IMG/VR virus record: IMGVR_UViG_3300029084_000052
Span: 1-37,114 of that record
Length of the DNA stretch: 37,114 bases
Reading direction: 5' to 3' (one strand)
Source of the DNA: a virus
Taxonomy: Duplodnaviria > Heunggongvirae > Uroviricota > Caudoviricetes
The notes beneath the pieces are model-generated. The model was given only the letters and a program-made list of their open reading frames with translations, did not search any database and had not been told where the DNA came from. Positions 23,898-37,114 of the stretch are shown here, piece after piece. Every line of letters begins with the position of its first letter. Within the stretch, counting starts at the first letter, position 1. The translations under genes were made by a program, and so were the position numbers.

Positions 23898-24928
23898 TGG
23901 GAAAGAGTAAGAAAAACCGCGCTGCGGCGACGAAACAGAGCCAGCATAAAAATCAAACTTCAGCCGAAGCTTTCAGCTTTGGTGATCCCATTCCTGTACT
24001 GGACCGCCGCGAACTGCTGGACTATGTGGAATGCGTACAGACGGATCGCTGGTATGAGCCACCCGTCAGTTTTGACGGACTGGCACGCACCTTCCGCGCT
24101 GCCGTGCATCACAGTTCACCGATTGCAGTGAAATGCAACATTCTGACCAGCACCTACATCCCTCACCCGCTGCTCAGCCAGCAGGCTTTTTCACGTTTTG
24201 TGCAGGACTATCTGGTATTTGGTAACGCCTACCTGGAGAAACGCACGAACCGGTTCGGTGAAGTTATCGCCCTTGAGCCTGCTCTGGCAAAATACACCCG
24301 ACGCGGGTTAGACCTGGATACCTACTGGTTTGTGCAATACGGTATGATCACCCAGCCATATCAGTTCACGAAAGGCAGCATCTTTCATCTGATGGAACCG
24401 GACATCAACCAGGAAATCTACGGCCTGCCCGGTTATCTTTCTGCTATTCCATCCGCCCTGCTCAACGAGTCTGCCACGCTGTTCCGCCGCAAGTATTACA
24501 TTAACGGCAGTCATGCAGGCTTCATCATGTATATGACCGACGCCGCGCAGAACCAGGAGGATGTAAACAACCTCCGCAACGCGATGAAAAGTGCCAAAGG
24601 TCCTGGTAACTTCCGTAACCTATTTATGTACTCGCCAAACGGCAAAAAGGACGGACTTCAGATCATCCCGTTGTCAGAAGTCGCGGCGAAGGATGAGTTT
24701 TTGAATATCAAGAACGTCAGCCGTGATGACATGATGGCGGCGCACCGTGTACCGCCACAAATGATGGGTATTATGCCGAATAATGTTGGGGGGTTTGGGG
24801 ATGTGGAGAAGGCAAGTAATGTATTTGTTCGTAACGAACTTATCCCCTTACAAAAACGTATAGAACAATTAAATCAATGGATAGGAAACACAATTATTAA
24901 TTTTTTACCATATTCTCTCCAAAGTTAA
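23897..24928 (+). CDS. Q: Portal protein Q
   Basis: About 343 aa; the ATG overlaps the P stop (TGATG). Confidence 0.85.
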   Translation: MGKSKKNRAAATKQSQHKNQTSAEAFSFGDPIPVLDRRELLDYVECVQTDRWYEPPVSFDGLARTFRAAVHHSSPIAVKCNILTSTYIPHPLLSQQAFSRFVQDYLVFGNAYLEKRTNRFGEVIALEPALAKYTRRGLDLDTYWFVQYGMITQPYQFTKGSIFHLMEPDINQEIYGLPGYLSAIPSALLNESATLFRRKYYINGSHAGFIMYMTDAAQNQEDVNNLRNAMKSAKGPGNFRNLFMYSPNGKKDGLQIIPLSEVAAKDEFLNIKNVSRDDMMAAHRVPPQMMGIMPNNVGGFGDVEKASNVFVRNELIPLQKRIEQLNQWIGNTIINFLPYSLQS

Positions 24929-24940
24929 AAAATAGCATAT

Positions 24941-24963
24941 GGGTGCATAATGTTTATGCACCC
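24941..24963. terminator. Perfect 10-bp hairpin between convergent Q and the TIR-like gene, probable bidirectional terminator
   Basis: GGGTGCATAA tgt TTATGCACCC, flanked by an A-run upstream and T-rich sequence downstream. Confidence 0.55.
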
Positions 24964-24968
24964 TCTTA

Positions 24969-25586
24969 TTACCAGTTAAAAATTGATGAGCTGCGAATTG
25001 CAGGAACATCCGATGGATTTCGTTTGGCAGCTGGTTCCATCAACTTACGCTTGTTAAATGCCTGATCAATATAATACTCAGGATTTTTAATAAAGACAGA
25101 GTATTTTACCAATGCACAATATACGTCAGAGTCATTATAATGGGGAACTGTTTTTTCATAAACATGATTCTTTCTAACCAGATAAGGCAAATAATAATCA
25201 TATCCCCAACCTGGCGTTCTTAGACTTATAGAACATCCGCATGATGGATCTGCACATACTGCAGGAGTAAACACACTGTCGTAAATTTCATCTCTGATAA
25301 CACCAATTAGACCATTATAGTTTTCTCCCCAGAGTGATGCTTGAATTTCAGAGTTTATAAATGGACGATTTTTGGTTTCCGTTCCAATAAGAACGACAGT
25401 AACCGTTGAGTCTTTTAAAAAATCCTCACGAATAGTCCTCATTATTGTTTCATCAGTGTTAGTTGTACTAATGTCACCATCACTTACCGACTTATCAATA
25501 AACGATTCTCCTCCGAATAAATCAATAATCTCATCTTTGAGATCTTGTTCGTTAGCATGATGATAACTAAGAAACGTCTTATGCAT
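24969..25586 (-). CDS. TIR-like domain protein (ThsB/DUF1863-like), accessory gene
   Basis: Begins MHKTFLSYHHANEQD (TIR beta-A-like F-L-S-Y); a later VTVVLIGTETKNRPFINSEIQ stretch resembles the ThsB-type core with a candidate catalytic Glu; AT-rich coding sequence. Confidence 0.55.
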   Translation of the reverse strand: MHKTFLSYHHANEQDLKDEIIDLFGGESFIDKSVSDGDISTTNTDETIMRTIREDFLKDSTVTVVLIGTETKNRPFINSEIQASLWGENYNGLIGVIRDEIYDSVFTPAVCADPSCGCSISLRTPGWGYDYYLPYLVRKNHVYEKTVPHYNDSDVYCALVKYSVFIKNPEYYIDQAFNKRKLMEPAAKRNPSDVPAIRSSSIFNW

Positions 25587-26317
25587 TATTCACTCCATTT
25601 ATCAACATTTATATCAAACTCTTTGACTACCTTATCATTGAAGAAATCGTTTACTTCTTTAAAACCTTCCAATACTTGACTAAAATGATAATAATGCTTT
25701 TGTATAGTACTTATAGGGGTTAAATGATACGGCAGTGATATAAATTCGCCGTTAGGGTCTCTATCCTTTGTGGTCACTTTATCATTATCTGAAACATATT
25801 TATGCCATCTCCGATAATTATTTTGATGCTTTGTTAAAAAAGAGTTTAACGTTTTCAAAATTTCATTTGAAAGTAAATACAGTTTTTTATCTCTTTTTTT
25901 CTTCACATCTAGTAATTTCATTTCATCTCTAATGAATTTATAGCACTCATAATATGAGTTTAAAACTTCTTCAATTGAGTCATAATTCGGATCAAATTTA
26001 AATAATGTTCGCTTCGTATCCAGATAATTTTTTACGCTCTTTTTAAAAAGAAGATCAGACTTATTTAGTAAAATATTAATACCACCAAAACTAAGTTGCT
26101 CCAATCTCAATGAATATCTTTGATGAAATGCACCGACCAGCAAGATATAAGCAACTAAAAATAGTATTAATACTGATAGAAAAGCACGAATTATGCTTAC
26201 ATTTGACATGAAATTAACTATAAACCACCATTTTTCAAACGGTGAAAACGGAATGCACCCCATGATAATAAGTAGAAGAACAAAGATACAACCCCATAAA
26301 ACCCACAATCTGTACAT
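25586..26317 (-). CDS. Two-TM membrane protein with a roughly 170-aa Lys/Glu-rich C-terminal domain of unknown family; partner of the TIR-like gene
   Basis: Start at the ATG (MYRLWVLWGCIF..) after an AAAAGGA Shine-Dalgarno; two hydrophobic helices; stop overlaps the TIR-like start (TAATG). Confidence 0.5.
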   Translation of the reverse strand: MYRLWVLWGCIFVLLLIIMGCIPFSPFEKWWFIVNFMSNVSIIRAFLSVLILFLVAYILLVGAFHQRYSLRLEQLSFGGINILLNKSDLLFKKSVKNYLDTKRTLFKFDPNYDSIEEVLNSYYECYKFIRDEMKLLDVKKKRDKKLYLLSNEILKTLNSFLTKHQNNYRRWHKYVSDNDKVTTKDRDPNGEFISLPYHLTPISTIQKHYYHFSQVLEGFKEVNDFFNDKVVKEFDINVDKWSE

Positions 26318-26470
26318 AAGAAAGATCCTTTTTCTTTTTATAATACTGCAACTACACCTCAAGTCAAAACCCTCTTCTGATATTACCCTCTACTACAGTA
26401 ACCCATCACATGACCTCCGACTTATCAGAAGACTAGCCAAACTTTCTCAATCAAATCAGGTTGCGCGCGC

Positions 26471-26495
26471 TCGTATCCCCGCCACGCCTGCCCGC
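26471..26495 (-). other. cos-like sequence (candidate phage cohesive-end site)
   Basis: Minus strand reads GGCGTGGCGGGGA.., matching the first 13 nt of the P2/186 19-nt cohesive end as I recall it; lies in a short GC-rich island. Confidence 0.4.
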
Positions 26496-26605
26496 TTTAT
26501 GTAGTAGTTTTCATGCAGGTGCATGATCTACGCGAAAGCCCGCCAATTCTGGCGGGCCCTAGCAAAAACGATCCTCAAACGATCATGCGATCTCATGCAG
26601 CATAG

Positions 26606-27448
26606 TCATGCACGATCATTTGACTCAGCATCTGCTGCACGCTTGCTGCGCGAAGATGCACTTTTACTATCAATCTTTCGACAGTTCTTTCTATCCCTGG
26701 CTTCATTTTCTTTAAATTTGTTATATGTCTCAGTATCAAAAAACGAAATTGTTTCAACCTCATCTTTTGGTATGAGCACACGGAAATCTTCGATATTAAG
26801 CCGAGACATTCCACTTATCACACCACTATCAAGATAATGTTGGTGATAGTTAGTCGTGATACTAATCGTTAGATCATCTTTATCCCGATATCCGCTTAAC
26901 ATCGGGAGAAGTTCAAGGTGCTCTGAAAGCCCGTTTTCTAACGCCGGACAAGTAACAAGACCAACATAGATTTTGCGAGACGACAGAGTTGCTATGATCG
27001 GAAACTGTCTTGCGGACGCTTCCATGAGTAATGATTCGAAAGCGTTATTACCTACAGCTTTAGCTAAGGCATCCCAGCGACGATCTCCACGTGATGTGCG
27101 TAACTTATTTCCAAAACCTGAAATCGCAGCGAGGACAATTGAAATCATAACCCATGCTATCTGTTTGATTTCATTTATTCTTTGAAGTTTGTCTTTCGAT
27201 GAAGACAACATGCCATTAAAACTGTCAGGTGTTAGATTCAAGGCATTAGCCAGCCAACGAAACCCTCCGCTGACGTTCAAAATAAAGGTGAAAAAACCGC
27301 CAAGGAGAAAAAAAACGATACCCCAGGCAGCCACAAAAAAATAAGCGTCCCAGCCGTTGGAACGCTTATATCGGTATCTTGTTGAAAGTGATAGGTTTAC
27401 ATAAATAAAACCACTAACCAAAATCACTGCTAAAAGTAATGTTGCCAT
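26606..27448 (-). CDS. Three-TM membrane protein with a soluble C-terminal domain, unknown function; accessory gene
   Basis: 280-aa ORF with three N-terminal hydrophobic helices, AT-rich; coupled to the upstream 71-aa gene (TAATG). Confidence 0.5.
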   Translation of the reverse strand: MATLLLAVILVSGFIYVNLSLSTRYRYKRSNGWDAYFFVAAWGIVFFLLGGFFTFILNVSGGFRWLANALNLTPDSFNGMLSSSKDKLQRINEIKQIAWVMISIVLAAISGFGNKLRTSRGDRRWDALAKAVGNNAFESLLMEASARQFPIIATLSSRKIYVGLVTCPALENGLSEHLELLPMLSGYRDKDDLTISITTNYHQHYLDSGVISGMSRLNIEDFRVLIPKDEVETISFFDTETYNKFKENEARDRKNCRKIDSKSASSRSKRAADAESNDRA

Positions 27449-27663
27449 TATCTGGTTCTATTAGTTTTCTCTTTTACAGTGCTCGTTTTGATGCCTTCAA
27501 GCTTATCCATCTGTGCCTTGATGGCATCCATTGCTCTTTTGTTAGACAAGTCTACGGACACAAAACCATCTTTACTAAGATTGAGTTTGTCCTGGTTCTC
27601 TTTAAGAACCCTTGCCAGACGTTCAACTGGGTTACCCAGGCTAAATGCGGCGATGCTTGACAT
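27448..27663 (-). CDS. Small 71-aa hydrophilic protein, unknown function; first gene of a coupled pair
   Basis: ATG preceded by AAGGGGGAG; stop overlaps the start of the 280-aa membrane protein. Confidence 0.45.
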   Translation of the reverse strand: MSSIAAFSLGNPVERLARVLKENQDKLNLSKDGFVSVDLSNKRAMDAIKAQMDKLEGIKTSTVKEKTNRTR

Positions 27664-27933
27664 AACTCCCCCTTTTCACATGGCGCGGAAGTCTACACTC
27701 CGACGCCTACAACCTCAACAGATTATCTTTAAAATTTAGACAACAATATCATCTGTTGATTGCGTTACTTAAACTTAAGTTCAATGCGCTCGATCATGCA
27801 AGCTGTTTCTTAAGAACTGTTAATTTCCTGGCATATATAGTGGTTAAGGTAACAAATTGACACTAACGCCTCGCATAGCTCGTTGTTCAACCTTGCTGAC
27901 GCCAGAAGCAAGTTCAGACGCCAGCAACGTTTC

Positions 27934-28167
27934 TTAATGCAGCCAGCTGTCGTCTTCCCACACCTTCTGCATAATTTTCATCACTTGTTTTCTTTCTTCG
28001 TCCAGTTGCAATCCGGTCAGTTCCACACCGTTAGAGCTACCTTTGCGGATACGAATTACCGTTTTGGGATACAGAGGACGCAGATTGCGGTAAAGCTCGG
28101 ATTCAAGGGCGTCCAGGGTAGACTGGCTAATCTTCTGCTCTTTATCGATCATTATTTCAATGCGCAT
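27934..28167 (-). CDS. DinI-family protein (damage-inducible protein I-like; 186 Tum C-terminal-domain-like)
   Basis: MRIEIMIDKEQKISQSTLDALESELYRNLRPLYP...KIMQKVWEDDSWLH aligns with E. coli DinI (MRIEVTIAK...ALAGELSRR...ILQETWESADDW) from memory. Confidence 0.75.
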   Translation of the reverse strand: MRIEIMIDKEQKISQSTLDALESELYRNLRPLYPKTVIRIRKGSSNGVELTGLQLDEERKQVMKIMQKVWEDDSWLH

Positions 28168-28178
28168 AAAAAGTCACC

Positions 28179-28367
28179 TCAACTGATGACATCCATTGAG
28201 CGGTTGTATTCGTGGGTTCTGATTTTTGCCATGAGTTCATCTGTTAGTTCAGAAACCCACTGCAAAGCCAGCCCCTTCTCTTCATCACTACACTCACTAG
28301 CCGCTACAAGCTTAAGAAAAAAATCAATGCGCTGGAGCTTCAAAGACTCCAAAAAATAGTCCTGCAT
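28179..28367 (-). CDS. Small 62-aa protein, first gene of the SOS-regulated operon (possible Tum N-terminal-like part)
   Basis: Strong AGGAGG Shine-Dalgarno; lies about 45 bp downstream of a LexA box and 11 nt upstream of the dinI-like gene. Confidence 0.5.
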   Translation of the reverse strand: MQDYFLESLKLQRIDFFLKLVAASECSDEEKGLALQWVSELTDELMAKIRTHEYNRSMDVIS

Positions 28368-28409
28368 CTTTCCTCCTATGACACCAAAGCAATACTGTAA
28401 ATATAACCA

Positions 28410-28425
28410 CTGTTTATATTTACAG
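28410..28425 (-). promoter_or_regulatory. LexA operator (SOS box) inside a 37-bp palindrome
   Basis: CTGTTTATATTTACAG (CTG-N10-CAG) within ATACTGTAAATATAACCACTGTTTATATTTACAGTAT; an overlapping near-match CTGTAAATATAACCAC lies just upstream. Confidence 0.7.
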
Positions 28426-28519
28426 TATATAATAATCTTACTGATGTAAAACGTTTTTTTACGTTCATCAGCCTGATATGCCTGGTATTATTAAGAGCAC
28501 GAATTGTTAACCCGCGTAA

Positions 28520-30934
28520 TTAATACAGGTTTCGCCACTTATCATCTTCCTGCAAACGCTGGTTCCGATAGAAGATACGCAGGCCTGCTCCTGACGGAAT
28601 ACTGCCGCCGCGAAGGAGTAAATCGACCTCTTTCTCGCTACCATCAAATCCTCTGGACTTCAGCTCATAGACGAGCTGCTGTCGCTGATGGTCTGTAATT
28701 CGCTGTTTGTAGTCTTTACGCCGTTTCGGTTTAACCAGGCGTAACCTTGCTGCCAGTTCCCGGCGCTCTTTTTTGCTCATACTGTGCAGGTAATCGTGCA
28801 ACTGCTTGTCATCCATGCGGGTAATGTCCGTTCTGGTGCCCCCATCAGCTGATTTATCTTTCTCCTGTTGGTTCAAATTTTCAGCAAGGGGACAGTTATT
28901 GCCACGAGTCCAAGGGGCGCAAGCGCCCTGGTCGGCTGCCGCCTCCTGAACGTCAACGGCTTTACGGACCATTTTCCACTTCACTGCATGAGTGCAGATC
29001 TTGCCCTCTGCAATGGGTGACCAGATGCCATAAATACGAATACCGTGATCGCCATAGGCGGTCGGCTCTTCGTTGATTTCATAAGCGGTTCTGATGAGGT
29101 GATATTTACGGGGAACCAGTACGCCGCCCTGCTTCATGATGTAGGTGGCAAAGCAACCAGCATCAGCTGCAGCCAGAATGGCATCAAGGCGCGGGTTATC
29201 CAGTACCGGCGCACCTGCTTTTTTGTCACCCTGTTGCCTTGCCGCCTGACCAGCCAGCAATCGCAGTTCACGGTAAGCCTGACGCCCCGGAATGCCAAAG
29301 AAGCGGAATTGCTGAACACGATGCAGAGACGCCCAGGCATTAACGTATTCAGCGTTATCACGCAGAGATTTACCCGTTTCCTTGCTGATCTCGCCAGCCA
29401 GACCACGCCCGTCAATGTTCTTACTGATGTATTTCGCGATGTAGCTTGTTGGTGTACCTTTGCGCGGGTTTATCAGCTCAGACTTAAAGCGTGGTCCTGT
29501 GTTATTACCCAGCTCCTCGCGGTCTTCACGAATGGCAAACTTACGCAACAAAGCAGTAATGGCGCGGCGATCTTTTTTGCGCATAAAACACAACAGGTGC
29601 CAGTGAACTGTACCGTCATGATGCGGCTCAGCCACCCGCACGCCATACCAGCGCAATCCGGCTTTGTACATCGCCTTACGAAATGCAGCAAACATGCCGA
29701 CCAGATAATCACTGCTTTGTCTTACCGTCGCATTTGTCCAAGTCGGGTTGGGCCTGCCGTTATTTAGCGTGGAATGGAAACGTGACGGACAGGTGATGGT
29801 GTAGAAAACGGCGCAGTCACCGCGCATTTCCGCGATAAGCTCCAGACCTTTAACACATGCCATCATCTCATTGCGGCGATGCGCCGGGTTGCTACTACTG
29901 GCGTTTACCACGTCCTCCATATCCAGCGTGTCGCCGTCTTCGTTCACCAGTTCATGAGAACGGAAAAACTCCAGCGACTTACGGCGCTGCTCACGTTTAT
30001 GCATCACGGCTTCATAGCTGACATAGGGAGATGCTTTTTTGCTGACCAGGCAAACAGCACGCAACTGCTCTTCCCGCCATTCGCAACGCATCTTCCATAA
30101 TTTCCGATACCACCAGTCGGCGCACAACATACGCGCCAGCGAACCCGGAATGAGTTCATAGGGTACGGGTTTACGGCGGTTTCTTTTCCGGCGGAGTTGC
30201 TCAAACGCAGGAGGGATGACATCCAGACGCAGGGTTTCCGCCGCCACCCTTTCCCATGTCTTGCGGATTTCTTCTGGCTTAACGTCATCGGTGGCATACA
30301 AATCACCACAAACTGCATCAAGGCACATGCTCATATGCGCGGCAACAAGGGTAGACAGGCGCTTCACCTGAGCCTGACTCATTTCAGGCAAGATCAGCAG
30401 GCCGTCCAGCCCTTCATGGCTTGCCATAAAACGAAAAGATGCAGATAGCTGGCTGTCGCGTACATGCTCCAGTCGTTCCAGACATGGTTTAATCGTCTCA
30501 CGCAAATAGCGGGAATAAGCCTTTGGCCTGCCCAGGCTGCTGAAGTATTCAATACGTTGCATCAGCGGCTTGCTGATATGGGAAGGCTGGGCGTTAACGT
30601 CCGCCAGTATGACCATGTCCGGATTAAAACGCTGCTGCTCATGCACCAGCTTTGCCCGGCTAATGAGCTTATCCTGCTCCATTTCGCGCTGGACAGGATC
30701 ACGGGATTCATTAAAGAAATAACGCTCCCAGACCTGATCACTCAGTGCCTCGCGGCGCAGTTGTTCCTGCTTGTTATCGGCAGCGTACAGAGTGATCAGG
30801 TTTGAAAGCGCAGAAACCGGCGCAACTTCCGCCGGGTCCAGATAAGGGTTAATCGCCTTTTTCGGGCTGTTCCATGAGAATGCTGCGGCGGCCTCGTTAA
30901 AGCCGCTGCAGTTGTTCATATCAGCATGGCTCAT
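28520..30934 (-). CDS. A: Replication initiation protein A (rolling-circle nicking endonuclease, P2 gpA family)
   Basis: 804-aa ORF of P2 gpA size (about 761 aa) at the P2 A position; its start overlaps the Dam stop. Confidence 0.8.
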
Positions 30935-31788
30935 GCACGCACTCCGTACACGGCAGAACTATCCACGCCACGCGAAGGATCAAATCCCACCCAGCAGCGC
31001 GCCCCAGAAACAGCGATGATTTCTGTTGCAGATTTACTCTCACCAGCTGCTACGCCGATGCTGCGTTTTGCCTTGATGTAGTGGTGAGTAAAATTGCGAT
31101 ACAGCGAACGGATCAGGGATGTGTCACTGTTAGAAACAATGACCGGATGTCCTTCTGATGACCGATGTTCAAGAACGGATGCCAGGTGATACTGGTCATC
31201 TTCAGTGAAACCATCAGTGTGATAGCTGGAAAACGTACCGTCATACGGCGGATCGCAATACACCACATCCCCCGCCTTCAACATCGCCAGCGTTTCATCA
31301 AAGCTGGCGCAGATAAACGTTGCTCGTTGGGCTTTCTCTGCAAATGCGCGAATTTCTTTTTCAGGGAAATACGGATTTTTATAATTACCGTAGGGAATGT
31401 TGAAATGCCCGCTCTTGTTATAGCGACATAACCCACGGTAACCGTGACGATTGAGATACAGGAAATATACCGCTTTCATGAAATCAGTAATTTCAGTTGA
31501 GTAATTAAACTCCTGCCTTATGTTGTAATAAGCCACCTCCCTGTTTGCTTCCTTAAATAAAACTCTGGCGCGAGATATAAACGATTCACAATCAGCGGCA
31601 ACCTTTTTATAGAGGTTGATTAAATCAGGATTAATATCCGCAACCAGATAGCTGGGATAATCCGTCTCCATCATCACAGCACAGGAACCCGCGAAAGGTT
31701 CAACCAGTCGCGGGCCAGCTGGAAGATGTTTTTTCAGTTCGGGCATTACGGCGGTTTTATTTCCCGCCCATTTCAGGATGGTGCTCAT
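30931..31788 (-). CDS. DNA adenine methyltransferase (Dam/D12 class N6-adenine MTase)
   Basis: FAGSCAV (motif I) and DPPY (motif IV); ATG at the [11 protein letters not shown] position overlaps the upstream gene stop. Confidence 0.8.
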
Positions 31789-32012
31789 ACAGCACCTCCG
31801 TTGTAATGTTTGCCTTTCAGCTCTGCGATTTCCTGACAGGTAATGCAAAGCTGCACACCTGGAATGGCGCGGCGGCGTGCTGGCGGAATTGGCGCTTCAC
31901 ACTCAATGCAAAGCACGCGGGACACGCCCGGCGTTTTGGCACGGGCAGCATGGATATGGCGCTGGCGTTCTTCTTCAACGCGCTGCTGTACGAGATCCAT
32001 TGCATCAGCCAT
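31785..32012 (-). CDS. TraR/DksA-family C4 zinc-finger protein
   Basis: CIEC-x17-CITC motif in a 75-aa ORF. Confidence 0.7.
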   Translation of the reverse strand: MADAMDLVQQRVEEERQRHIHAARAKTPGVSRVLCIECEAPIPPARRRAIPGVQLCITCQEIAELKGKHYNGGAV

Positions 32013-32245
32013 TAGTGGATCTCCTGCGCTTCGTTCTGGATTGCTTCAGCAGTTACACGCAGTAGTTCTGCTGCTTCGACGTGGTTTAGCTGGCGGGATG
32101 TGATATGACACGCCAGGCTATCAAGGCGAGCTGCCATTGCTTCAGCCCTTGCCCGGCGTTCTTCCAGACGAGCCTCTGTCAGTAAAATATTAAGCCCTGC
32201 ATCATCCGGTCCGGTTTTAGTCTTGAGGGTTTCAATATTACGCAT
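32012..32245 (-). CDS. Hypothetical phage early protein
   Basis: About 77 aa from an ATG preceded by GGAGAA; the first in-frame codon is TTG. Confidence 0.5.
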   Translation of the reverse strand: MRNIETLKTKTGPDDAGLNILLTEARLEERRARAEAMAARLDSLACHITSRQLNHVEAAELLRVTAEAIQNEAQEIH

Positions 32246-32312
32246 AATCAATTCTCCTGAATTTAGATAAAGGGATACCCGGCGGGTTTACGCCATTAAT
32301 TTCATTAGTTGG

Positions 32313-32654
32313 TTAATTCGGCATGGTTAGCCGTCTGGGAAATAAGCTCACCACTGCACGAAAATGATTCATTGCTTTAATCAACTCCCGCTTTTCGTCA
32401 GTGGTCAGCTCATTAATGCTGATGCTATGACGTTCAGCTGGAATTTTTGCCATAAAGAATATGGCAGCCAGTGCTCGTTTATTCTGTTCGTTATTGATAT
32501 CCCGTGGATCACGCATATCTTTAATAAACCGCTCAAGCTCTGACTCAATATTCAGGCCAAATACTTTCGCCCTTAACTCCGCAATGTGATTAAGTCCATT
32601 CAGGCGTTCACCGGGGCTTAATGGAACAGTTGCTGCAGCGCCTTCAATAGCCAT
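32313..32654 (-). CDS. Hypothetical phage early protein (at the fil/dhr position of the 186 early operon)
   Basis: 113-aa ORF with GGGGGA Shine-Dalgarno; overlaps the upstream gene by 37 nt. Confidence 0.5.
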   Translation of the reverse strand: MAIEGAAATVPLSPGERLNGLNHIAELRAKVFGLNIESELERFIKDMRDPRDINNEQNKRALAAIFFMAKIPAERHSISINELTTDEKRELIKAMNHFRAVVSLFPRRLTMPN

Positions 32655-32818
32655 TTGTTCCCCCGTTTTTTCGTAGATAGTTCTGCCAGCAATTCATCCT
32701 GTGAACGGCACGGATGCCAGCGTTTACCATCCTCCCCCATGATCCAGCCGTGACCGTAGTGCATTGCCGGGCTTTGTTTTACCAGCAGCGATGCAAATGA
32801 TGGTTCTTTCGTCAGCAT
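32618..32818 (-). CDS. Hypothetical phage early protein (position following cII)
   Basis: About 66 aa from the ATG (MLTKEPSF..), beginning 7 nt after the cII stop. Confidence 0.45.
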   Translation of the reverse strand: MLTKEPSFASLLVKQSPAMHYGHGWIMGEDGKRWHPCRSQDELLAELSTKKRGNKWLLKALQQLFH

Positions 32819-32825
32819 AAGCACC

Positions 32826-33335
32826 TCACAGCAAACCGAATGAAGCACCGAGGCCAGTAACGGTATCAACTGCACTCGCCATCGCAGGATTAGCCTGTAA
32901 ACGGGCCTGCAATGAAACAGCGGCCAGCGCCATCAGCCGTGTTACAGAGTTAATGCTGCTGATAGCATCACGACGACCTGCACTGGTTTTTACATCGCCG
33001 GATACCGCACCTGCAGCAACACGCCCGATCTCTGCGGTTGCACTCATGACATAATGCGGCAGTTTCTCTTTTGCCACCTCATTAATCGGTACACATGGCA
33101 GGCAGTGAATCTGTGCCAGAAAGCCATCTACCAGCGTTGAATCTTCAGTCAGATCGGTAAGCAACCAGATTTCTGGTGCGGTTAATAAATGAGGTTGAGC
33201 TGGGTTCAGCTTGTTCCGCAGAATCTGTACATTCATGCCTGCACGTTCTGCCAGTTGCACCAGGTTGTGGCGCAGTGCGAATGCACGACAGGCTTCGTCA
33301 AAATGTGGATGTTTGGAAACTTGGTAATCAAACAT
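32826..33335 (-). CDS. cII: CII-type transcription activator, phage 186 type
   Basis: [24 protein letters not shown]...[23 protein letters not shown]... is a close match to 186 CII from memory; 169 aa from the ATG. Confidence 0.8.
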
Positions 33336-33367
33336 AGTCGACACCCCTGATGTATCCCAAAATGGAA

Positions 33368-33589
33368 CTAGTTGAATACAACATTGCAATCAGTAAGTGC
33401 ATCAACGGTAAGAGCAGCAAGGTTGATCATTACCTTTTCTCTTTTCTTGTCTTTCCGAAGGCGATGGCGAGGGATGCGACCATCAGCCAGCATATCGTTG
33501 ATGGTGTCGATAGAAAGACCAGTAAGTTCGCTATAACGCTCAATTGTGACATGTGGCGTATTCAGAGTTATTGAAATGTTAGGGGTCAT
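33368..33589 (-). CDS. apl: Apl-like excisionase/transcriptional regulator (Cox analogue)
   Basis: About 73-aa HTH protein ([27 protein letters not shown]), first gene of the leftward lytic operon, AGGAG Shine-Dalgarno. Confidence 0.65.
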
Positions 33590-33684
33590 GATGCAACATC
33601 TCCTATTGGCTTGTGGTGAGCCTGTAGTAATCGTGATAAGTACCCAAATGGGGACAAAATTGATACTAGGATCGCAAAAGAGAT

Positions 33685-34281
33685 ATGTCAACATCAAAGT
33701 ACCCAAATGAGATCAAAATAAATCCCAATAAAGGTGGTAAGGCTGCGATTGAGCGATTAGTCGAAGCTTATGGCTTTACGACACGACAGGCTTTAGCTGA
33801 TCACTTGGAAGTATCAAAAAGCACTCTGGCGAACAGGTATTTGCGGGATACGTTTCCTGCAGACTGGATAATCCAATGTGCTCTTGAAACAGGAACCTCA
33901 CTGAAATGGTTAACCACCGGGCAAGGCCTTAAGCAAAGCTCGCTGACAGCAGCTACAGAAGAGCTTGCCAAGTTTCGCCTTACCGCAGGCAAAATGATTG
34001 AAGATGGTTCATATGTCTTCGATTCATCATTTCTTCCTGCAAATCTTTCATCACCAATTGTTATTCAGGATGGGCTCGTCACATACATTTGTGATCAAAA
34101 ATTTTCTGAAGTACTTGATGGGCACTGGTTAATCAACATCGACGGAACCTATTCCATTCGAAAAATCACAAAGCTTCCAAAAGGTATGATTAAAATTACA
34201 AGTACAGAGAATAGCTTTGAATGTGCATTTTCTGATATTGAAGTAGTTGCTTGTATAAGAAGTACAATAATTTCAAATTAA
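33685..34281 (+). CDS. cI: CI-type immunity repressor, phage 186 type
   Basis: 198-aa ORF with N-terminal motifs (AYGF...QALADHL..S.STLANRY...CALETG.SL.WL.TG.G) resembling 186 CI from memory; divergent from apl. Confidence 0.7.
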   Translation: MSTSKYPNEIKINPNKGGKAAIERLVEAYGFTTRQALADHLEVSKSTLANRYLRDTFPADWIIQCALETGTSLKWLTTGQGLKQSSLTAATEELAKFRLTAGKMIEDGSYVFDSSFLPANLSSPIVIQDGLVTYICDQKFSEVLDGHWLINIDGTYSIRKITKLPKGMIKITSTENSFECAFSDIEVVACIRSTIISN

Positions 34282-34301
34282 TATAGTAAAAGGATTTAAA
34301 A

Positions 34302-35978
34302 ATGAATTCATTTTCCATCGTTATATTCTTATTAGCATTTCTCGCCCCCATTCTAGCTGTAATATTATTTAAGCAAAGCAAAAAACATAAAGCGGCTATA
34401 AATACCTTGACAGCTAACAACATAGCCCTTTCCAACCAACTGAAAGAAAATCAAGAAGAATTAGCACAGACTGTACGAGATCTATCAGAGCTTGAAGGAC
34501 GAGCTGCGCCATTATGGCAATACGTAGAATTGCACAGCGCAGTGATGGAAGCAGAGAATAAGATAAAAAATGCAGACTCAATAGCCAGGCAAAAAATAGA
34601 AGAAGCCCAAATAAAGGCTGCTAAGACAGTAAACGAAGCAAATTATCAAGCTCAGATAAAAATAAGCAACGCTAATAGCGAAGCTATAGCAATTACTAAA
34701 GACGCTCGCGATGCACGCCTGAAAGCTAAAGAACGTCTTGATAATGCCAATAGTAAAGCAAATGAGCTGATCTCAAATGCTAATGACAATGCAGTGAAAA
34801 TTATTTCCGATGCAGAAGAAAGAGCAAAAGAGATTGCTGGTTCAGCATATGAAGCTAAAGAGTTTGCAGAAAAATATGAAGCAGTTGCCAAATCAATGAA
34901 AAATAAAATTGAAGGTTATGGTGATGAATGGATCATCCCTAACCGTAGCGTTCTCGATGAATTGGCAGAAAATTATGAGTTTACAGATGCAGGTAAGGAA
35001 TTACAAAAAGCCAGGGAGTTAACAAAATCATTAATAAAAACTAATAAAGCTGCTTCGTGTGATTATGTTGAACAAAACAGGCGTAATACTGCTATCAACT
35101 TTGTTTTAGATGCCTTCAATGGAAGAGTTGACAGTATTTTATCAAAAGTCAAACACAACAATTTTGGAAAACTTTCCCAAGAGATAAAAGATGCGTTTCA
35201 ACTTGTAAATTACAATGGTTCTGCCTTTAGGTCCGCAAAAATAAGTGACATCTATCTTCAAGCTCGACTCAACGAGCTAAAATGGGGAGTTGCAGTTAAT
35301 GAAATTATGCTCGAAGAAAAAGAAGAGCAAAGAAGGATTAAAGAACAACTTCGTGAAGAGGAAAGAGCTCGTAGGGAGTATGAAAAAGCGATAAAAGAAG
35401 CTGAAAAAGAAGAGAAAGCTATTCAGCAAGCTATAAATAAAGCAACAAAAGAGCTTATGCTTGCAAATGAAGAACAACGCTTAGCTTTAGAGCAAAAAAT
35501 AGCTGAACTACAGTTAAAATATGAAGAAGCTGAAGCTAAAAACCAACGAGCTATTTCTATGGCTCAACAAACTAGATCAGGCCACGTTTATATAATTAGT
35601 AATATTGGCTCATTTGGCGAAGATGTATATAAAATTGGAATGACACGCCGCCTTGAACCACTTGATCGTGTTCGTGAACTCGGTGATGCTAGTGTTCCTT
35701 TTTCGTTCGATGTTCATGCGATGATTTATAGTGATGATGCACCATCATTAGAAAATCATCTGCATAAAGTCTTCAACGAAAAACAGGTCAATAAAATTAA
35801 CTCACGAAAAGAGTTTTTCAACGTAAATATTAAAGAAATTAAGTCTGTTATTGAAGATATGAACATCAACGCACAATGGACAATGTTTGCGGAAGCGAAA
35901 GAATATAGAGAGTCACTGGCGATTGAGCAAGAGCGCAAAGCAGCAACTTCCGCCAACGATGAACTGCATGTTGCTTAG
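34302..35978 (+). CDS. Membrane-anchored coiled-coil protein with a C-terminal T5orf172/GIY-YIG-like domain (DUF4041-like architecture); accessory gene
   Basis: N-terminal TM helix, long Ala/Lys/Glu-rich repeats, C-terminal GHVYIISNIGSFGEDVYKIGMTRRLEPLDRVRELGDASVPFSFDVHAMIYS; AT-rich; AAAAGGA Shine-Dalgarno 20 nt after the cI stop. Confidence 0.6.
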   Translation: MNSFSIVIFLLAFLAPILAVILFKQSKKHKAAINTLTANNIALSNQLKENQEELAQTVRDLSELEGRAAPLWQYVELHSAVMEAENKIKNADSIARQKIEEAQIKAAKTVNEANYQAQIKISNANSEAIAITKDARDARLKAKERLDNANSKANELISNANDNAVKIISDAEERAKEIAGSAYEAKEFAEKYEAVAKSMKNKIEGYGDEWIIPNRSVLDELAENYEFTDAGKELQKARELTKSLIKTNKAASCDYVEQNRRNTAINFVLDAFNGRVDSILSKVKHNNFGKLSQEIKDAFQLVNYNGSAFRSAKISDIYLQARLNELKWGVAVNEIMLEEKEEQRRIKEQLREEERARREYEKAIKEAEKEEKAIQQAINKATKELMLANEEQRLALEQKIAELQLKYEEAEAKNQRAISMAQQTRSGHVYIISNIGSFGEDVYKIGMTRRLEPLDRVRELGDASVPFSFDVHAMIYSDDAPSLENHLHKVFNEKQVNKINSRKEFFNVNIKEIKSVIEDMNINAQWTMFAEAKEYRESLAIEQERKAATSANDELHVA

Positions 35979-36035
35979 CAATGTATGTTTCATAGTAATC
36001 ACACATTGATTACTGGTTGTATATACAGTTAAATT

Positions 36036-36061
36036 TAGCCCTCTGATATGAGGGCTTTTTT
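36036..36061 (+). terminator. Rho-independent terminator directly abutting the int start codon
   Basis: tagccctc tgatat gagggct followed by ttttt, with the int ATG immediately after. Confidence 0.65.
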
Positions 36062-37114
36062 ATGGCAGTACGAAAACTCACCACAGGAAAATGGCTTTGC
36101 GAATGTTACCCCGCCGGACGTAGTGGACGTCGTGTGCGTAAACAATTCGCCACCAAAGGCGAAGCTCTGGCTTTTGAGCGTCACACGATGGAAGAAACCG
36201 AAGCAAAGCCCTGGCTGGGTGAATCAGTGGATCGTCGAACACTGAAAGACGTGGTTGAACTATGGTTCAAACTACATGGTAAATCTCTGACAGCTGGCCA
36301 GCATGTCTATGACAAACTGCTGTTAATGGTTGACGCTCTGGGCAATCCCCTTGCAACCGATCTCACATCTAAAATGTTTGCCCACTATCGAGATAAACGC
36401 CTGACAGGAGAGATCTACTTCAGCGAGAAATGGAAGAAAGGAGCAAGCCCGGTCACCATTAACCTGGAGCAAAGCTATCTAAGTAGTGTTTTTAGCGAAC
36501 TATCCCGCCTGGGCGAATGGTCGTATCCGAACCCACTGGAGAACATGCGAAAATTCACCATCGCAGAAAAAGAGATGGCATGGCTTACCCATGAGCAGAT
36601 TGTTGAATTACTGGCTGATTGCAAACGTCAGGACCCAATTCTGGCACTGGTAGTTAAGATATGCTTAAGCACAGGCGCACGCTGGCGTGAAGCCGTAAAT
36701 CTTACCCGCTCACAGGTGACCAAATACCGAATTACCTTTGTAAGAACGAAGGGGAAGAAAAACAGAAGCATCCCTATCAGTAAAGAGCTTTACGAAGAGA
36801 TCATGGCGCTTGATGGGTTCAATTTCTTCACAGACTGCTATTTTCAATTTTTATCCGTGATGGAAAAAACGTCTATCGTGCTCCCTCGCGGTCAACTGAC
36901 ACACGTTCTGCGCCATACGTTTGCGGCGCACTTCATGATGTCGGGTGGAAACATCCTGGCCTTACAAAAAATTCTCGGACATCACGATATAAAAATGACG
37001 ATGCGTTACGCACATCTGGCACCGGATCATCTGGAAACGGCGCTCCGTTTCAATCCTCTGGCAACGCTGCCAAGTGGCGACAAAGTGGCGGCAGCGGTTG
37101 GCATTACCCCGTAA
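36062..37114 (+). CDS. int: Tyrosine integrase, P2 Int family
   Basis: 350 aa with LSTGARWREA and HVLRHTFAAHFMMSGGNILALQKILGH...MTMRYAHL motifs matching P2 Int from memory; the stop codon is the last three bases of the window. Confidence 0.85.
   Translation: MAVRKLTTGKWLCECYPAGRSGRRVRKQFATKGEALAFERHTMEETEAKPWLGESVDRRTLKDVVELWFKLHGKSLTAGQHVYDKLLLMVDALGNPLATDLTSKMFAHYRDKRLTGEIYFSEKWKKGASPVTINLEQSYLSSVFSELSRLGEWSYPNPLENMRKFTIAEKEMAWLTHEQIVELLADCKRQDPILALVVKICLSTGARWREAVNLTRSQVTKYRITFVRTKGKKNRSIPISKELYEEIMALDGFNFFTDCYFQFLSVMEKTSIVLPRGQLTHVLRHTFAAHFMMSGGNILALQKILGHHDIKMTMRYAHLAPDHLETALRFNPLATLPSGDKVAAAVGITP

What the first reader, a model, noticed from the sequence alone, without database searches (positions are those of the whole stretch)
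24929..36061. Three separate accessory insertions in one prophage, each at a different backbone junction
The Q-cos, cos-A and cI-int junctions each carry visibly AT-rich cargo, in contrast to the GC-richer structural and replication genes, and each cargo unit has its own coupling and a terminator. This suggests repeated independent acquisition, and the loci are best compared across relatives as variable hotspots.
Basis: inference. Interest (0 to 1): 0.4.

Follow-up and report, generated by a model that had tools for sequence, protein, structure and literature searches.

The report
Three defence-cargo slots in a P2/186-like prophage
An E. coli P2/186-type prophage carries three independently swappable, AT-rich accessory modules at known phage hotspots: two are anti-phage systems already shown to work in experiments (type VI Thoeris and SNIPE/PD-lambda-1), and the third is an uncharacterised two-gene membrane cassette.

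Summary
Three AT-rich blocks (GC 0.33, 0.41, 0.37; late-gene backbone 0.55) lie at portal–cos, cos–SOS operon and cI–int of an E. coli 186-like prophage integrated next to rybB/ybjL.

Comparison with 160 related phage contigs gives sharp, recurrent breakpoints and independent assortment.
- cI, the LexA-controlled s62–DinI (Tum-like) operon and a 150-bp cos island are AT-poor or AT-rich backbone, not cargo.
- Two of the three "own" terminators belong to the backbone.
- The cI–int cargo co-diverges with the cI allele instead of turning over quickly.

Cargo identities:
- **Cargo 1** is type VI Thoeris (thsG–thsB), 99.0% nucleotide-identical to the experimentally validated E. coli ACN001 system.
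- **Cargo 3** is SNIPE/PD-lambda-1, a membrane-anchored nuclease that cuts phage DNA during injection.
- **Cargo 2** is a 71-aa protein plus a 280-aa protein with three transmembrane helices and an Sm-like domain. It matches no known family but moves as a unit between P2-like and lambda-like prophages.

The hotspot reading is correct and already published (Rousset 2022; Vassallo 2022; de Sousa 2026). Two things are modestly new: the gpA–gpQ "hotspot" resolves into two independently exchanging slots split by cos, and cargo 2 is a candidate exclusion or defence cassette.

The parts
23894..24928 (+). Portal gene (P2 Q / 186 W homologue). It is the left anchor of slot 1, and its last 15-115 nt are exchanged together with the cargo.
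   Evidence: ORF. Relatives are 93-99% identical. Homology breaks between 24813 and 24914.
24915..26462 (-). Cargo 1 segment (slot Q-cos), GC 0.328.
   Evidence: Breakpoints; GC. Shared only with L014 among 80 relatives. Present in 42 of 5426 E. coli genomes at 95% identity or more.
24941..24963 (.). Bidirectional terminator-like hairpin between the convergent portal and thsB genes.
   Evidence: dG -15.0 and -16.3 kcal/mol; z -3.6 and -4.3.
24969..25586 (-). thsB: TIR-domain signal synthase of type VI Thoeris (205 aa; candidate catalytic Glu80).
   Evidence: Pfam PF08937 at 1.5e-14 and PADLOC ThsB models. E80 aligns with the Glu of the 'RYEI' motif in ThsB1, PDB 9b7d/6lhy. 170 of 173 residues are identical to the TIR of the validated E. 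coli ACN001 type VI system.
25586..26317 (-). thsG: type VI Thoeris effector (243 aa). It has two N-terminal transmembrane helices and a helical cytoplasmic domain. The true start is MYRLW at 26317, not the 258-aa ORF start.
   Evidence: Homologues are all 238-243 aa. Transmembrane segments 4-22 and 46-64. AF2 pLDDT 82.6, with no PDB fold match. A ThsB gene is always immediately downstream, in Enterobacterales and in Bacillota. The cassette is 99.0% nucleotide-identical to ACN001, whose effector is annotated 'DUF6650 and TM'.
26340..26367 (-). Promoter-like site (TTGACT-16-TATTAT) upstream of thsG.
   Evidence: 10 of 12 matches. The ACN001 system defended when expressed from its native promoter.
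26463..26613 (.). Conserved cos island that separates slots 1 and 2. It contains the 19-nt cohesive end (26470-26488, minus strand) and a t95b-like terminator hairpin (about 26535-26558, minus strand).
   Evidence: Present in every relative that extends that far. Alignment to 186 cos and t95b. Hairpin dG -24.7, z -4.9. GC 0.556.
26614..27862 (-). Cargo 2 segment (slot cos-SOS operon), GC 0.405. Relatives with an empty site join 26613 directly to 27863.
   Evidence: It occupies the position of orf97 in phage 186.
26606..27448 (-). TM280: 280-aa protein of unknown family, with three N-terminal transmembrane helices, a cytoplasmic Sm/LSm-like beta-barrel and a long charged C-terminal helix.
   Evidence: Transmembrane segments 1-19, 39-57 and 94-112. 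AF2 pLDDT 78.9. Foldseek matches Lsm/Sm proteins at E 3e-3, probability 1.0, TMt 0.74, and viral Sm-like proteins. Matches phrog_3630, function unknown. No Pfam, PADLOC, NCBIfam or PDB sequence hit.
27448..27663 (-). s71: 71-aa soluble partner, translationally coupled (TAATG) to TM280.
   Evidence: Matches phrog_9843, function unknown. 51% identical to the partner in an Aeromonas siphovirus. A 55-72-aa ORF lies immediately upstream of the TM280 homologue in all seven contexts examined.
27934..28367 (-). Backbone SOS operon: s62 (28179-28367) and a DinI-like 77-aa gene (27934-28167). This is not cargo.
   Evidence: Pfam DinI at 6.6e-23. 41% identical to residues 71-145 of 186 Tum. Present in 67-71 of 80 relatives.
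28410..28425 (.). LexA box CTGTTTATATTTACAG, the only one in the window, just upstream of s62. It is the analogue of the LexA site at 186 p95.
28520..30934 (-). Replication endonuclease gpA, the right anchor of the classical 'gpA-gpQ hotspot'.
33685..34281 (+). 186-type CI repressor. It is backbone and the left anchor of slot 3.
   Evidence: Pfam Phage_CI_repr at 8e-32 and Phage_CI_C at 4e-27.
34282..35995 (+). Cargo 3 segment (slot cI-int), GC 0.365.
   Evidence: Breakpoints at 34281/2 and 35980-36003. GC.
34302..35978 (+). SNIPE / PD-lambda-1 homologue (558 aa): N-terminal transmembrane anchor, coiled coil, DUF4041, and a T5orf172/GIY-YIG-like nuclease domain.
   Evidence: PADLOC PD-Lambda-1 at 4.7e-120. 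Pfam DUF4041 at 267-322 and T5orf172/MUG113 at 427-520. Transmembrane segment 4-22. Mechanism from PMC13190303.
36037..36056 (+). Hairpin plus T-run in the conserved int leader. Its 3' arm (GAGGGCT) holds the only Shine-Dalgarno-like sequence before the int ATG at 36062.
   Evidence: dG -14.8, z -2.9. It lies to the right of the conserved breakpoint at about 35996.
36062..37114 (+). Integrase, the right anchor of slot 3.

Best explanation
The window is an E. coli prophage of the P2 family, 186 type (cI/apl/cII switch, LexA-controlled Tum-like operon), integrated beside rybB/ybjL. Three short backbone intervals act as exchange slots for accessory genes that the lysogen expresses.

Slot 1 lies between the portal gene's 3' end and cos. 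It holds a type VI Thoeris operon.
- On infection, the TIR protein ThsB makes a cyclic ADP-ribose-type signal. This was 2'cADPR in three of the five type VI systems tested.
- The signal activates the membrane-anchored effector ThsG, which arrests or kills the cell.

Slot 2 lies between cos and the 3' end of the SOS operon, the position of orf97 in phage 186.
- It holds a coupled pair: a 71-aa soluble protein and a three-transmembrane-helix protein with an Sm-like domain.
- I infer that this is an inner-membrane superinfection-exclusion or abortive-infection module.
- It would be expressed from its own upstream region, and possibly by read-through from the LexA-controlled promoter.

Slot 3 lies between cI and int.
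- It holds SNIPE/PD-lambda-1, a membrane-anchored nuclease that cuts incoming siphovirus DNA at the injection site.
- It sits 20 nt behind cI, so it is presumably co-transcribed with the repressor from the lysogenic promoter.

Cargo is replaced by homologous recombination in the conserved flanks. Slots 1 and 2 turn over fast and independently. Slot 3 travels with the cI immunity allele.

Shown here: the composition, the breakpoints, the assortment, and the identities of cargo 1 and cargo 3. Inferred: the expression routes, the recombination mechanism, and the function of cargo 2.
For: Map and host:
- The closest phage records are 186-like Klebsiella and E. coli phages.
- The flank is 99.9% E. 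coli ybjL-ybjM-grxA, and RybB lies at 2700-2778.
- The 186 reference map was used for comparison.

Slots:
- Breakpoints and the conserved 150-bp cos island.
- Interval sizes and GC.
- 48 left types, 23 right types and 66 combinations among 74 elements.
- P(same right cargo | same left cargo) is 0.28, against a baseline of 0.12.
- cI-int breakpoints and the co-divergence of SNIPE with cI.

Cargo 1:
- Family hits and the aligned catalytic Glu.
- The conserved thsG-thsB pairing across phyla.
- Identity to the validated ACN001 system.
- Mechanism from the preprint.

Cargo 3.

Cargo 2:
- The cassette is conserved in P2-like and lambda-like prophages, in an Aeromonas siphovirus and in a remnant island.
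- Structure.

What the slots hold in relatives:
- 8 of the 10 commonest slot-1 cargo types hit PADLOC models.
- 3 of 9 slot-2 types do. The commonest slot-2 types are small membrane or lipoprotein-like ORFs.

Literature on the hotspots.
Against: - The Pfam DUF6650 model that defines ThsG does not match the window protein, or 20 or more of its relatives, at E <= 1 in this Pfam copy. Only 4 of 67 family members carry a precomputed PF20355 hit. Membership therefore rests on near-identity to the system the authors tested, not on the domain model.
- Cargo 2 has no hit in any defence database. Its function is inferred only from its context and architecture.
- No expression data exist. The promoter scan found fewer sites than in shuffled sequence (17 against 24.1 expected).
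- The relatives come from IMG/VR and include clonal copies, so the type counts are descriptive rather than rates.
Confidence: 0.85

Rival explanations
1. The portal-to-gpA interval is one hotspot, as the literature treats it. What looks like two insertions is then a single composite cargo that happens to contain cos.
For: Published analyses define a single gpA-gpQ hotspot. There is some linkage between the two sides: P(same right | same left) is 0.28, against 0.12 by chance.
Against: - A 150-bp cos island (26463-26613, GC 0.556) is conserved in every relative that extends that far, and it has the same two breakpoints.
- 23 of 74 elements have an empty right side next to 20 or more different left cargoes.
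- The window's left and right cargoes each recur with a different partner, in L014 and L020.
- ACN001 has cargo 1 with an empty right slot.
Confidence: 0.05
2. Cargo 3 is not a recent insertion. It is a long-standing part of the immunity module: cI plus SNIPE form one exchange unit, and the AT-richness is simply the composition of that regulatory region.
For: - SNIPE is present in all 35 relatives whose cI is at least 83% identical, and in none of the 33 whose cI is at most 81% identical.
- Its identity tracks that of cI: 100, 97.5, 96.9 and about 82%.
- Many relatives break homology inside or upstream of cI (33604-33926), not at its stop codon.
- cI itself has GC 0.397.
Against: - Clean breakpoints exactly at the cI stop (34281/2) and at about 35996 exist in L133-L135 and L137/138.
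- Phage 186, and also L160 and L163, have cI abutting int (0-11 bp), so the gene is dispensable and was inserted at some point.
- SNIPE homologues are mobile single-gene systems found elsewhere.
Confidence: 0.3
3. Cargo 2 is not an anti-phage module. It serves the phage or the host in some other way, for example a membrane factor for lysis, induction or host physiology expressed with the SOS operon, or a toxin-antitoxin-like addiction pair.
For: - It lies directly downstream of the LexA-controlled operon, with only a weak hairpin and no U-run in between.
- It has no defence-database hit.
- In E. coli A14 the TM280 gene is truncated after residue 134, so it is dispensable.
- In Aeromonas it lies between the tail tube and tape-measure genes.
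Against: - It moves as a unit between unrelated phage backbones and positions, which is typical moron behaviour.
- It occupies the slot of 186 orf97, which blocks 186 infection when expressed.
- Neighbouring relatives carry DarG, PifA and PDC-M18 in the same slot.
- 23 of 74 relatives have the slot empty, so it is not a core phage function.
Confidence: 0.3

Closest known systems
P2-family accessory hotspots: gpA-gpQ (old/tin), integrase-to-primase/cI, and Z/fun (Odegrip 2006; Rousset 2022, PMC9122126; Vassallo 2022, PMC9519451; de Sousa 2026, PMC13586616; iLund4u preprint 10.1101/2024.10.15.618418)
   Same: The backbone positions are the same, next to cos and next to int/cI. The cargo is AT-rich and highly variable, and it is enriched in defence systems. 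The Z/fun position in this window carries a DNA invertase, as is often reported.
   Different: The literature treats gpA-gpQ as a single hotspot. In this lineage it resolves into two slots, separated by a conserved 150-bp cos island, that assort largely independently. The SOS operon (s62-DinI) sits inside the interval as backbone. The cI-int cargo is linked to the cI allele rather than swapped rapidly.
Type VI Thoeris (TIR ThsB plus DUF6650 effector ThsG; bioRxiv 10.64898/2025.12.03.692087), specifically the E. coli ACN001 system
   Same: The two-gene cassette is 99.0% nucleotide-identical. The ThsB proteins share 170 of 173 residues. The gene order is the same. It sits in the same Q-cos slot of a P2-like element, at the same chromosomal site.
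   Different: In this window the prophage looks intact, whereas in ACN001 it is a deletion remnant. The Pfam DUF6650 model does not score on this branch with the tools used here. The signalling molecule of this particular variant is not established in what I could read.
SNIPE / PD-lambda-1 (Vassallo 2022; Nature 2026, PMC13190303)
   Same: It matches the PADLOC PD-Lambda-1 profile over nearly its full length (E 4.7e-120). It has the same architecture: an N-terminal transmembrane anchor, DUF4041, and a T5orf172/GIY-YIG-type nuclease.
   Different: The protein is 558 aa against a 491-position profile. Its longer N-terminal coiled-coil region (residues 1-113) lies outside the profile match.
Phage 186 SOS operon: p95-tum-t95a-orf97-t95b-cos (NC_001317)
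   Same: A LexA box lies upstream. The DinI-like protein is 41% identical to the C-terminal half of Tum. An accessory gene slot lies between it and cos. A t95b-like terminator sits next to cos.
   Different: Tum is a single 146-aa protein. Here there are two ORFs (62 aa and 77 aa), and the 62-aa one has no similarity to the Tum N-terminus. Orf97 is unrelated to TM280.

Membership tests
P2-family cos-proximal (gpA-gpQ) hotspot | Located between the replication gene gpA and the portal gene gpQ, next to cos. | tested here: met
   Portal at 23894-24928, cos at 26470-26488, gpA at 28520-30934.
P2-family cos-proximal (gpA-gpQ) hotspot | Gene content varies between otherwise near-identical elements. 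| tested here: met
   48 left types and 23 right types among 74 elements whose portals are at least 93% identical.
P2-family cos-proximal (gpA-gpQ) hotspot | Cargo enriched in anti-phage systems. | tested here: met
   8 of the 10 commonest left-slot cargo types and 3 of 9 right-slot types hit PADLOC models. The window's own left cargo is a validated system.
Type VI Thoeris | ThsB: a TIR-like domain with the conserved catalytic glutamate. | tested here: met
   PF08937 at 1.5e-14 and PADLOC ThsB models. E80 aligns with the Glu of ThsB1 'RYEI'.
Type VI Thoeris | Effector carries the DUF6650 (PF20355) domain. | tested here: inconclusive
   hmmscan finds no PF20355 hit at E <= 1 (or <= 10) for the window protein or its relatives. 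4 of 67 relatives carry a precomputed PF20355 hit. The 99%-identical ACN001 effector is annotated 'DUF6650 and TM' by the authors.
Type VI Thoeris | thsB and the effector gene form one operon and are conserved as a pair. | tested here: met
   TAATG overlap. The pair is adjacent in Serratia, in Priestia and in Bacillota metagenome contigs.
Type VI Thoeris | Confers phage defence. | not testable with these tools
   Reported for the ACN001 system, which is 99.0% nucleotide-identical, in E. coli MG1655. Not tested for this allele.
Type VI Thoeris | Signals through 2'cADPR. | not testable with these tools
   Three of five tested type VI TIRs made 2'cADPR. The text read here does not name the two that did not.
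SNIPE / PD-lambda-1 | Near-full-length match to the family profile. | tested here: met
   PADLOC PDLC03976 at E 4.7e-120, residues 114-550 against profile positions 35-481 of 491.
SNIPE / PD-lambda-1 | N-terminal membrane anchor, plus DUF4041, plus a C-terminal GIY-YIG/T5orf172 nuclease. | tested here: met
   Transmembrane segment 4-22. DUF4041 at 267-322 and T5orf172/MUG113 at 427-520.
SNIPE / PD-lambda-1 | Cleaves phage DNA during injection, through contacts with the tape-measure protein and ManYZ. | not testable with these tools
   Known for the family prototype only.
Phage 186-type SOS (tum) operon | LexA operator at the promoter. | tested here: met
   CTGTTTATATTTACAG at 28410-28425 is the only match in the window, though 0.59 are expected by chance over 37 kb. 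It lies about 45 nt upstream of the s62 start.
Phage 186-type SOS (tum) operon | Tum protein: a specific N-terminal half plus a DinI-like C-terminal half. | tested here: inconclusive
   The DinI-like half is present as a separate 77-aa ORF (41% identical, E 3e-24). The upstream 62-aa ORF shows no similarity to the Tum N-terminus.
MscS-like channels (considered for TM280) | Three transmembrane helices followed by an Sm-like beta domain, and similarity to MscS family proteins. | tested here: inconclusive
   The topology and Sm-like fold are present. The top 50 Foldseek hits are Lsm/Sm proteins, not MscS. There is no Pfam MS_channel hit and no PDB sequence hit.
Known defence systems (PADLOC v2) for cargo 2 | Match to any defence-system protein model. 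| tested here: not met
   No hit for s71 or TM280 at E <= 0.01.

The most novel reading that the evidence does not exclude
The s71-TM280 cassette (26606-27663) is a previously undescribed two-gene anti-phage or superinfection-exclusion system. It would consist of an inner-membrane protein with a cytoplasmic Sm-like oligomerisation domain, controlled by a small soluble partner. It spreads as a moron among P2-like and lambda-like prophages. In addition, the textbook gpA-gpQ hotspot would really be two functionally distinct slots. The portal side would hold mostly cytoplasmic defence systems, all read towards the portal gene. The SOS-operon side would be enriched in envelope proteins and potentially SOS-inducible.
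Probability: 0.35. Interest if true: 0.5.

Novelty: already known. Interest (0 to 1): 0.3.

Why it matters
The case shows how much of a strain's phage immunity can sit in one 33-kb prophage: two validated systems and one candidate.

It also adds fine structure to a heavily mined hotspot:
- Treating gpA-gpQ as two slots with sharp, conserved boundaries (24813-24914 to 26462, and 26614 to 27862) would make automated cargo extraction cleaner.
- It would separate true cargo from the conserved SOS-induction operon.

The practical lead is cargo 2. It is a compact cassette of about 1.1 kb, conserved across phage types and absent from defence databases, and it could be cloned and tested directly.

Tried and rejected
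1. P2 cos consensus search (GGCGAGGCGGGGAAAGCAC, up to 3 mismatches). It found nothing. The site is of the 186 type and was located by reading the sequence and aligning it to 186.

2. ThsG as a type I or type II Thoeris effector. There is no PADLOC ThsA hit. The AF2 model is all-helical apart from one hairpin, so it is not SIR2/SLOG or Macro, and there is no PDB fold match (best E 0.68).

3. Recovering DUF6650 on ThsG by scanning 23 family members, 8 distant members and 10 remote representatives. None gave a hit.

4. A profile search of 1.84 billion representatives. It widened the family to 212 proteins but added no annotation.

5. The AC1 TIR-plus-TM system of Rousset 2022 as the same system. 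No phage record encodes a ThsG homologue, so this could not be linked.

6. Whether cargo 1 equals one of TIR-I to TIR-IX from the E. coli TIR survey (PMC11350192). This could not be decided, because no sequences or supplements are held.

7. TM280 against 186 Orf97: unrelated.

8. TM280 profile against PDB sequences: no hit.

9. Flanking direct or inverted repeats as signs of site-specific insertion: nothing convincing.

10. Rfam scan: only RybB, in the host flank.

11. The promoter scan is uninformative, with fewer hits than in shuffled sequence.

Full report
**What the window is.** It holds a P2-family prophage of the 186 type in E. coli.
- The left flank (1-2800) is 99.9% identical to E. coli grxA-ybjM-ybjL.
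- Rfam places the RybB sRNA at 2700-2778, directly beside the phage ogr gene at 2856-3107.
- The order then runs D ... tail and head genes ... terminase P (22131-23897), portal Q (23894-24928), cos, replication gene A (28520-30934, minus strand), dam, the early genes, cII, apl, cI (33685-34281), a 558-aa gene, and int (36062-37114).
- The closest phage records are Klebsiella and E. coli 186-like phages at 95-96% identity.
- 1356 of 5426 complete E. coli genomes contain a relative of the 24800-36100 stretch. Only 14 cover 80% or more of it.

**Checking the observation.** Sliding-window and per-segment GC confirm three strongly AT-rich blocks: 0.328 for 24915-26462, 0.405 for 26614-27862 and 0.365 for 34282-35995.
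- In the late-gene backbone, 1.5-kb windows have mean 0.551, sd 0.027 and minimum 0.472.
- Composition alone over-calls cargo. cI (0.397), the s62-DinI operon (0.429) and dam (0.469) are also AT-rich but are conserved in relatives.
The minus-strand sequence GGCGTGGCGGGGATACGAG (26470-26488), preceded by CATAAAGCGGGCA, aligns with the annotated cohesive end of phage 186.
- Gene coupling is real. thsG/thsB and s71/TM280 both overlap as TAATG, and the 558-aa gene starts 20 nt after the cI stop.

**Synteny test, slots 1 and 2.** I fetched 80 viral contigs whose portal is 93-99% identical. In each I located the portal end, the cos core and the DinI/s62/A anchors.
- Frequencies among the 80 contigs: s62 in 71, A in 68, DinI in 67, dam in 65. 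TM280 occurs in 4. ThsB, ThsG and s71 each occur in only 1.
- Seven contigs end before the anchors. The other 73 were used for the interval measurements, giving 74 elements with the window.
- The Q-to-cos interval is never empty. It is 528-3535 bp with GC 0.31-0.42, and it falls into 48 sequence types among the 74 elements.
- The cos-to-DinI interval is 201-202 bp (GC 0.50) in 23 elements and up to 4505 bp in the rest, in 23 types.
- There are 66 different combinations.

Pairwise BLAST of the window against every contig gives recurrent breakpoints.
- Homology ends at 24813-24914, inside the 3' end of the portal gene.
- It resumes at 26461-26465 and runs to 26612-26617.
- It resumes again at 27862/3, or at 27924/27936 or 28178/28191 in some relatives.

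So a 150-bp cos island (26463-26613, GC 0.556) is conserved in every relative that reaches it and splits the classical gpA-gpQ interval into two slots.
- Among 36 pairs that share the left cargo, only 10 share the right one (0.28, against a baseline of 0.12).
- The window's left cargo recurs in L014 (99.5%) with a different right cargo and a cI only 53% identical.
- Its right cargo recurs in L020 (99-100%) with a different left cargo and a cI 55% identical.

**Synteny test, slot 3.** I fetched 80 contigs encoding a relative of the window's cI.
- The right breakpoint is always at 35980-36003.
- The left breakpoint is either exactly at the cI stop (34281/2: L133-135, L137/138) or inside or upstream of cI (33604-33926).
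- All 35 contigs whose cI is 83% or more identical carry the same gene. Its identity tracks that of cI: 100, about 97.5, about 96.9 and about 82%.
- The 33 contigs with more distant cI alleles share the integrase (88-99% identical) in all but three cases. All but two carry other AT-rich cargo of 1050-2700 bp.
- The two exceptions (L160 and L163, int 53% identical) have 11 bp between cI and int. Phage 186 itself has cI abutting int.
- This slot is therefore real, but its cargo is linked to the immunity allele and is older.
- SNIPE-bearing contigs that also appear in the portal set (L016, L053, L067, L079, L084, L091) carry six different slot-1/slot-2 pairs.

**What is backbone, not cargo.** The only LexA box in the window (CTGTTTATATTTACAG, 28410-28425) lies just upstream of s62 (28179-28367) and a DinI-like 77-aa gene (27934-28167).
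- The DinI-like protein is 41% identical to residues 71-145 of the 186 antirepressor Tum.
- The layout matches 186 p95-LexA-tum-t95a-orf97-t95b-cos.
- The strong hairpin at about 26535-26558 (dG -24.7 kcal/mol) aligns with 186 t95b and lies in the cos island.
- The hairpin at 36037-36056 lies in the conserved int leader, and its 3' arm contains the only Shine-Dalgarno-like sequence for int.
- Only the hairpin at 24941-24963 belongs to a cargo segment.

**Cargo 1 is type VI Thoeris.**
- The 205-aa protein is a ThsB-type TIR (PF08937 at 1.5e-14, plus PADLOC ThsB models). Glu80 aligns with the catalytic Glu position of ThsB1.
- The upstream ORF is really 243 aa, since all homologues are 238-243 aa. 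It has two transmembrane helices and a confidently modelled helical domain with no PDB fold match.
- The pair is conserved from Enterobacterales P2-like prophages, in the same slot in Serratia, to Priestia and other Bacillota defence islands.
- The decisive link comes from the supplement of bioRxiv 10.64898/2025.12.03.692087. It lists a TIR from E. coli ACN001, typed 'DUF6650 - Type VI', that matches the window's ThsB at 170 of 173 residues.
- Table S2 of that preprint records the ACN001 pair (effector 'DUF6650 and TM') as defensive in E. coli MG1655.
- The ACN001 chromosome matches the whole 1349-bp cassette at 99.0%. The cassette sits in the same Q-cos slot of a deleted P2-like remnant, at the same ybjL/ogr site.
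- According to that preprint, type VI TIRs make 2'cADPR and ThsG is modelled as a hexameric tube. Variants with transmembrane helices are proposed to breach the membrane. Two of the five tested systems gave no detectable 2'cADPR.
- Caveat: the Pfam DUF6650 model itself does not score on this branch with the tools here.

**Cargo 3 is SNIPE/PD-lambda-1.**
- The PADLOC PD-Lambda-1 profile matches at 4.7e-120.
- Pfam finds DUF4041 (267-322) and T5orf172/MUG113 (427-520), and there is one N-terminal transmembrane helix.
- The family prototype was found in a functional screen. It was later shown to be a membrane-bound nuclease that cleaves phage DNA during injection, through association with ManYZ and the phage tape-measure protein.
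- Its position 20 nt behind cI implies co-transcription with the repressor in the lysogen. This is an inference.

**Cargo 2 is unknown.**
- s71 and TM280 match only PHROG families of unknown function. Nothing matches in Pfam, PADLOC, NCBIfam or PDB sequences.
- TM280 has three transmembrane helices. Its model (pLDDT 78.9) has a cytoplasmic Sm/LSm-like barrel (Foldseek E 3e-3, probability 1.0) followed by a long charged helix.
- The family has 57 clusters at 90% identity, all gammaproteobacterial apart from one annotated Martelella.
- In all seven contexts examined, a 55-72-aa ORF lies immediately upstream. The contexts are:
  - P2-like A-Q intervals (the window, L020, Photorhabdus);
  - a lambda-like tail region between K and I (Enterobacter);
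  - between the tail tube and tape-measure genes of an Aeromonas siphovirus;
  - a DinI-small-TM remnant in Pectobacterium;
  - the edge of a Shewanella P2-like element.
- The Aeromonas partner is 51% identical to s71.
- This is the behaviour of an autonomous moron.
- The slot's other occupants include DarG, PifA and PDC-M18A. The commonest occupants are small lipoprotein-like or membrane ORFs with no defence hit. In 186 the slot holds orf97, which blocks 186 infection when expressed.
- My best guess, at roughly 35-40%, is an inner-membrane exclusion or abortive-infection module. An MscS-like channel idea remains untested.

**Comparison with what is known.** All three positions are published P2-family hotspots.
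- gpA-gpQ is described by Odegrip 2006, Rousset 2022 and Vassallo 2022.
- The integrase-to-primase/cI position holds 8% of P2 defence systems in de Sousa 2026. It is a third hotspot in the iLund4u preprint, and Rousset 2022 describes a cI-int hotspot in K139-like phages.
- In the slot-1 relatives sampled here, 8 of the 10 commonest cargo types hit PADLOC models: AbiU, PDC-M03A, PD-T7-1, PD-T7-4 (weakly), a retron-type RT, PDC-S59, Hp2 and NsnA/PD-T4-2.
- The longest ORF of all 48 slot-1 types is on the strand convergent with the portal gene.

The finding is therefore confirmed and, in kind, already known. Three refinements come out of this work:
- the two-slot structure around cos;
- the linkage of the cI-int cargo to the immunity allele;
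- one uncharacterised cassette worth testing.

**Verdict.**
- Observation: confirmed.
- Interpretation: supported, with the corrections above.
- Novelty: already known, with cargo 2 as a possible new member.
- Interest: 0.3.

Noticed in passing
window 2700-2778 (+), next to ogr at 2856-3107: Rfam finds a full-length RybB sRNA (105 bits) about 80 nt from the prophage's ogr end. The prophage is therefore integrated at or just beyond the 3' end of rybB, between ybjL and rcdA. E. coli A14 and ACN001 have related elements at the same site.
   Followed up: partly
window 10145-12244: A serine DNA invertase (10145-10717, minus strand) lies next to two oppositely oriented tail-fibre assembly genes (11236-11829 on plus, 11801-12244 on minus) and an unassigned 165-aa ORF (10739-11236). 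This looks like an invertible host-range segment at the position of the P2 Z/fun hotspot. Local GC is 0.479.
   Followed up: partly
L183 (E. coli ACN001, NZ_CP007442 859860-872208): The strain that supplied the experimentally tested type VI Thoeris carries it in a P2-like remnant. A tape-measure fragment is fused to a portal fragment, so most structural genes are deleted, yet the defence cassette, SOS operon and replication genes are intact.
   Followed up: partly
L013 (E. coli A14) 14054-14724 and 15581-17955: In a near-identical prophage, TM280 is truncated after residue 134 (a 151-aa ORF with a frameshifted tail) while s71 is intact. Gene A is annotated as frameshifted. This is an example of decay of cargo 2.
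   Followed up: partly
L010-L012 (Aeromonas) 5785-6771: The s71/TM280 cassette lies between the tail tube gene and the tape-measure gene of a siphovirus. That is where tail assembly chaperone genes (G/GT) normally lie, and no other candidate chaperone ORF is called there.
   Followed up: no
L178-L180 (Pectobacterium) 4372-5819: DinI (77 aa), a 65-aa ORF and a TM280 homologue sit alone in the chromosome with no other phage genes nearby, next to an MscS-family channel gene. This is probably a remnant of a P2-like SOS-operon/slot-2 region.
   Followed up: no
window 30931-30934 (A/dam junction); L013 17955-18776; L183 10183-11004; L006/L007 1941-2972; L174 25743-26747: There is another variable site immediately upstream of gene A. 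It is empty in the window, where dam abuts A. In E. coli A14 and ACN001 it holds a 273-aa hypothetical gene. In 186 and one Serratia prophage it holds a PAPS-reductase-like gene, and in another Serratia prophage a C5 DNA methylase.
   Followed up: no
L014-L093, Q-cos interval: In all 48 cargo types of the portal-side slot, the longest ORF is on the strand convergent with the portal gene. In the cos-DinI slot both orientations occur.
   Followed up: partly
window 36037-36061: The conserved hairpin plus T-run directly before the int ATG sequesters the only Shine-Dalgarno-like sequence (GAGG). It is present in relatives that carry cargo between cI and int. In 186, int overlaps the cI stop instead. 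It may act as an attenuator or translational control of int.
   Followed up: no
proteins P0026, P0106, P0120, P0123 (ThsG family): The precomputed Pfam column lists PF20355 (DUF6650) for these four relatives, but hmmscan against the Pfam copy available here returns no PF20355 hit even at E <= 10. The defining domain of type VI Thoeris effectors is thus at the edge of detection for this branch.
   Followed up: yes
L037, L039, L084, cos-DinI interval (type R7, 1321 bp): A distant TM280 homologue (32% identity, 260 aa) occupies the same slot in three relatives. Divergent versions of the same cassette family therefore recur at this site.
   Followed up: no
L002-L004 (Priestia and Bacillota metagenome contigs): The thsG-thsB pair sits in islands with three to four further TIR proteins, including a 683-686-aa TIR plus SLOG-like (LD_cluster2) protein. 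These are clusters of several Thoeris-like modules.
   Followed up: no
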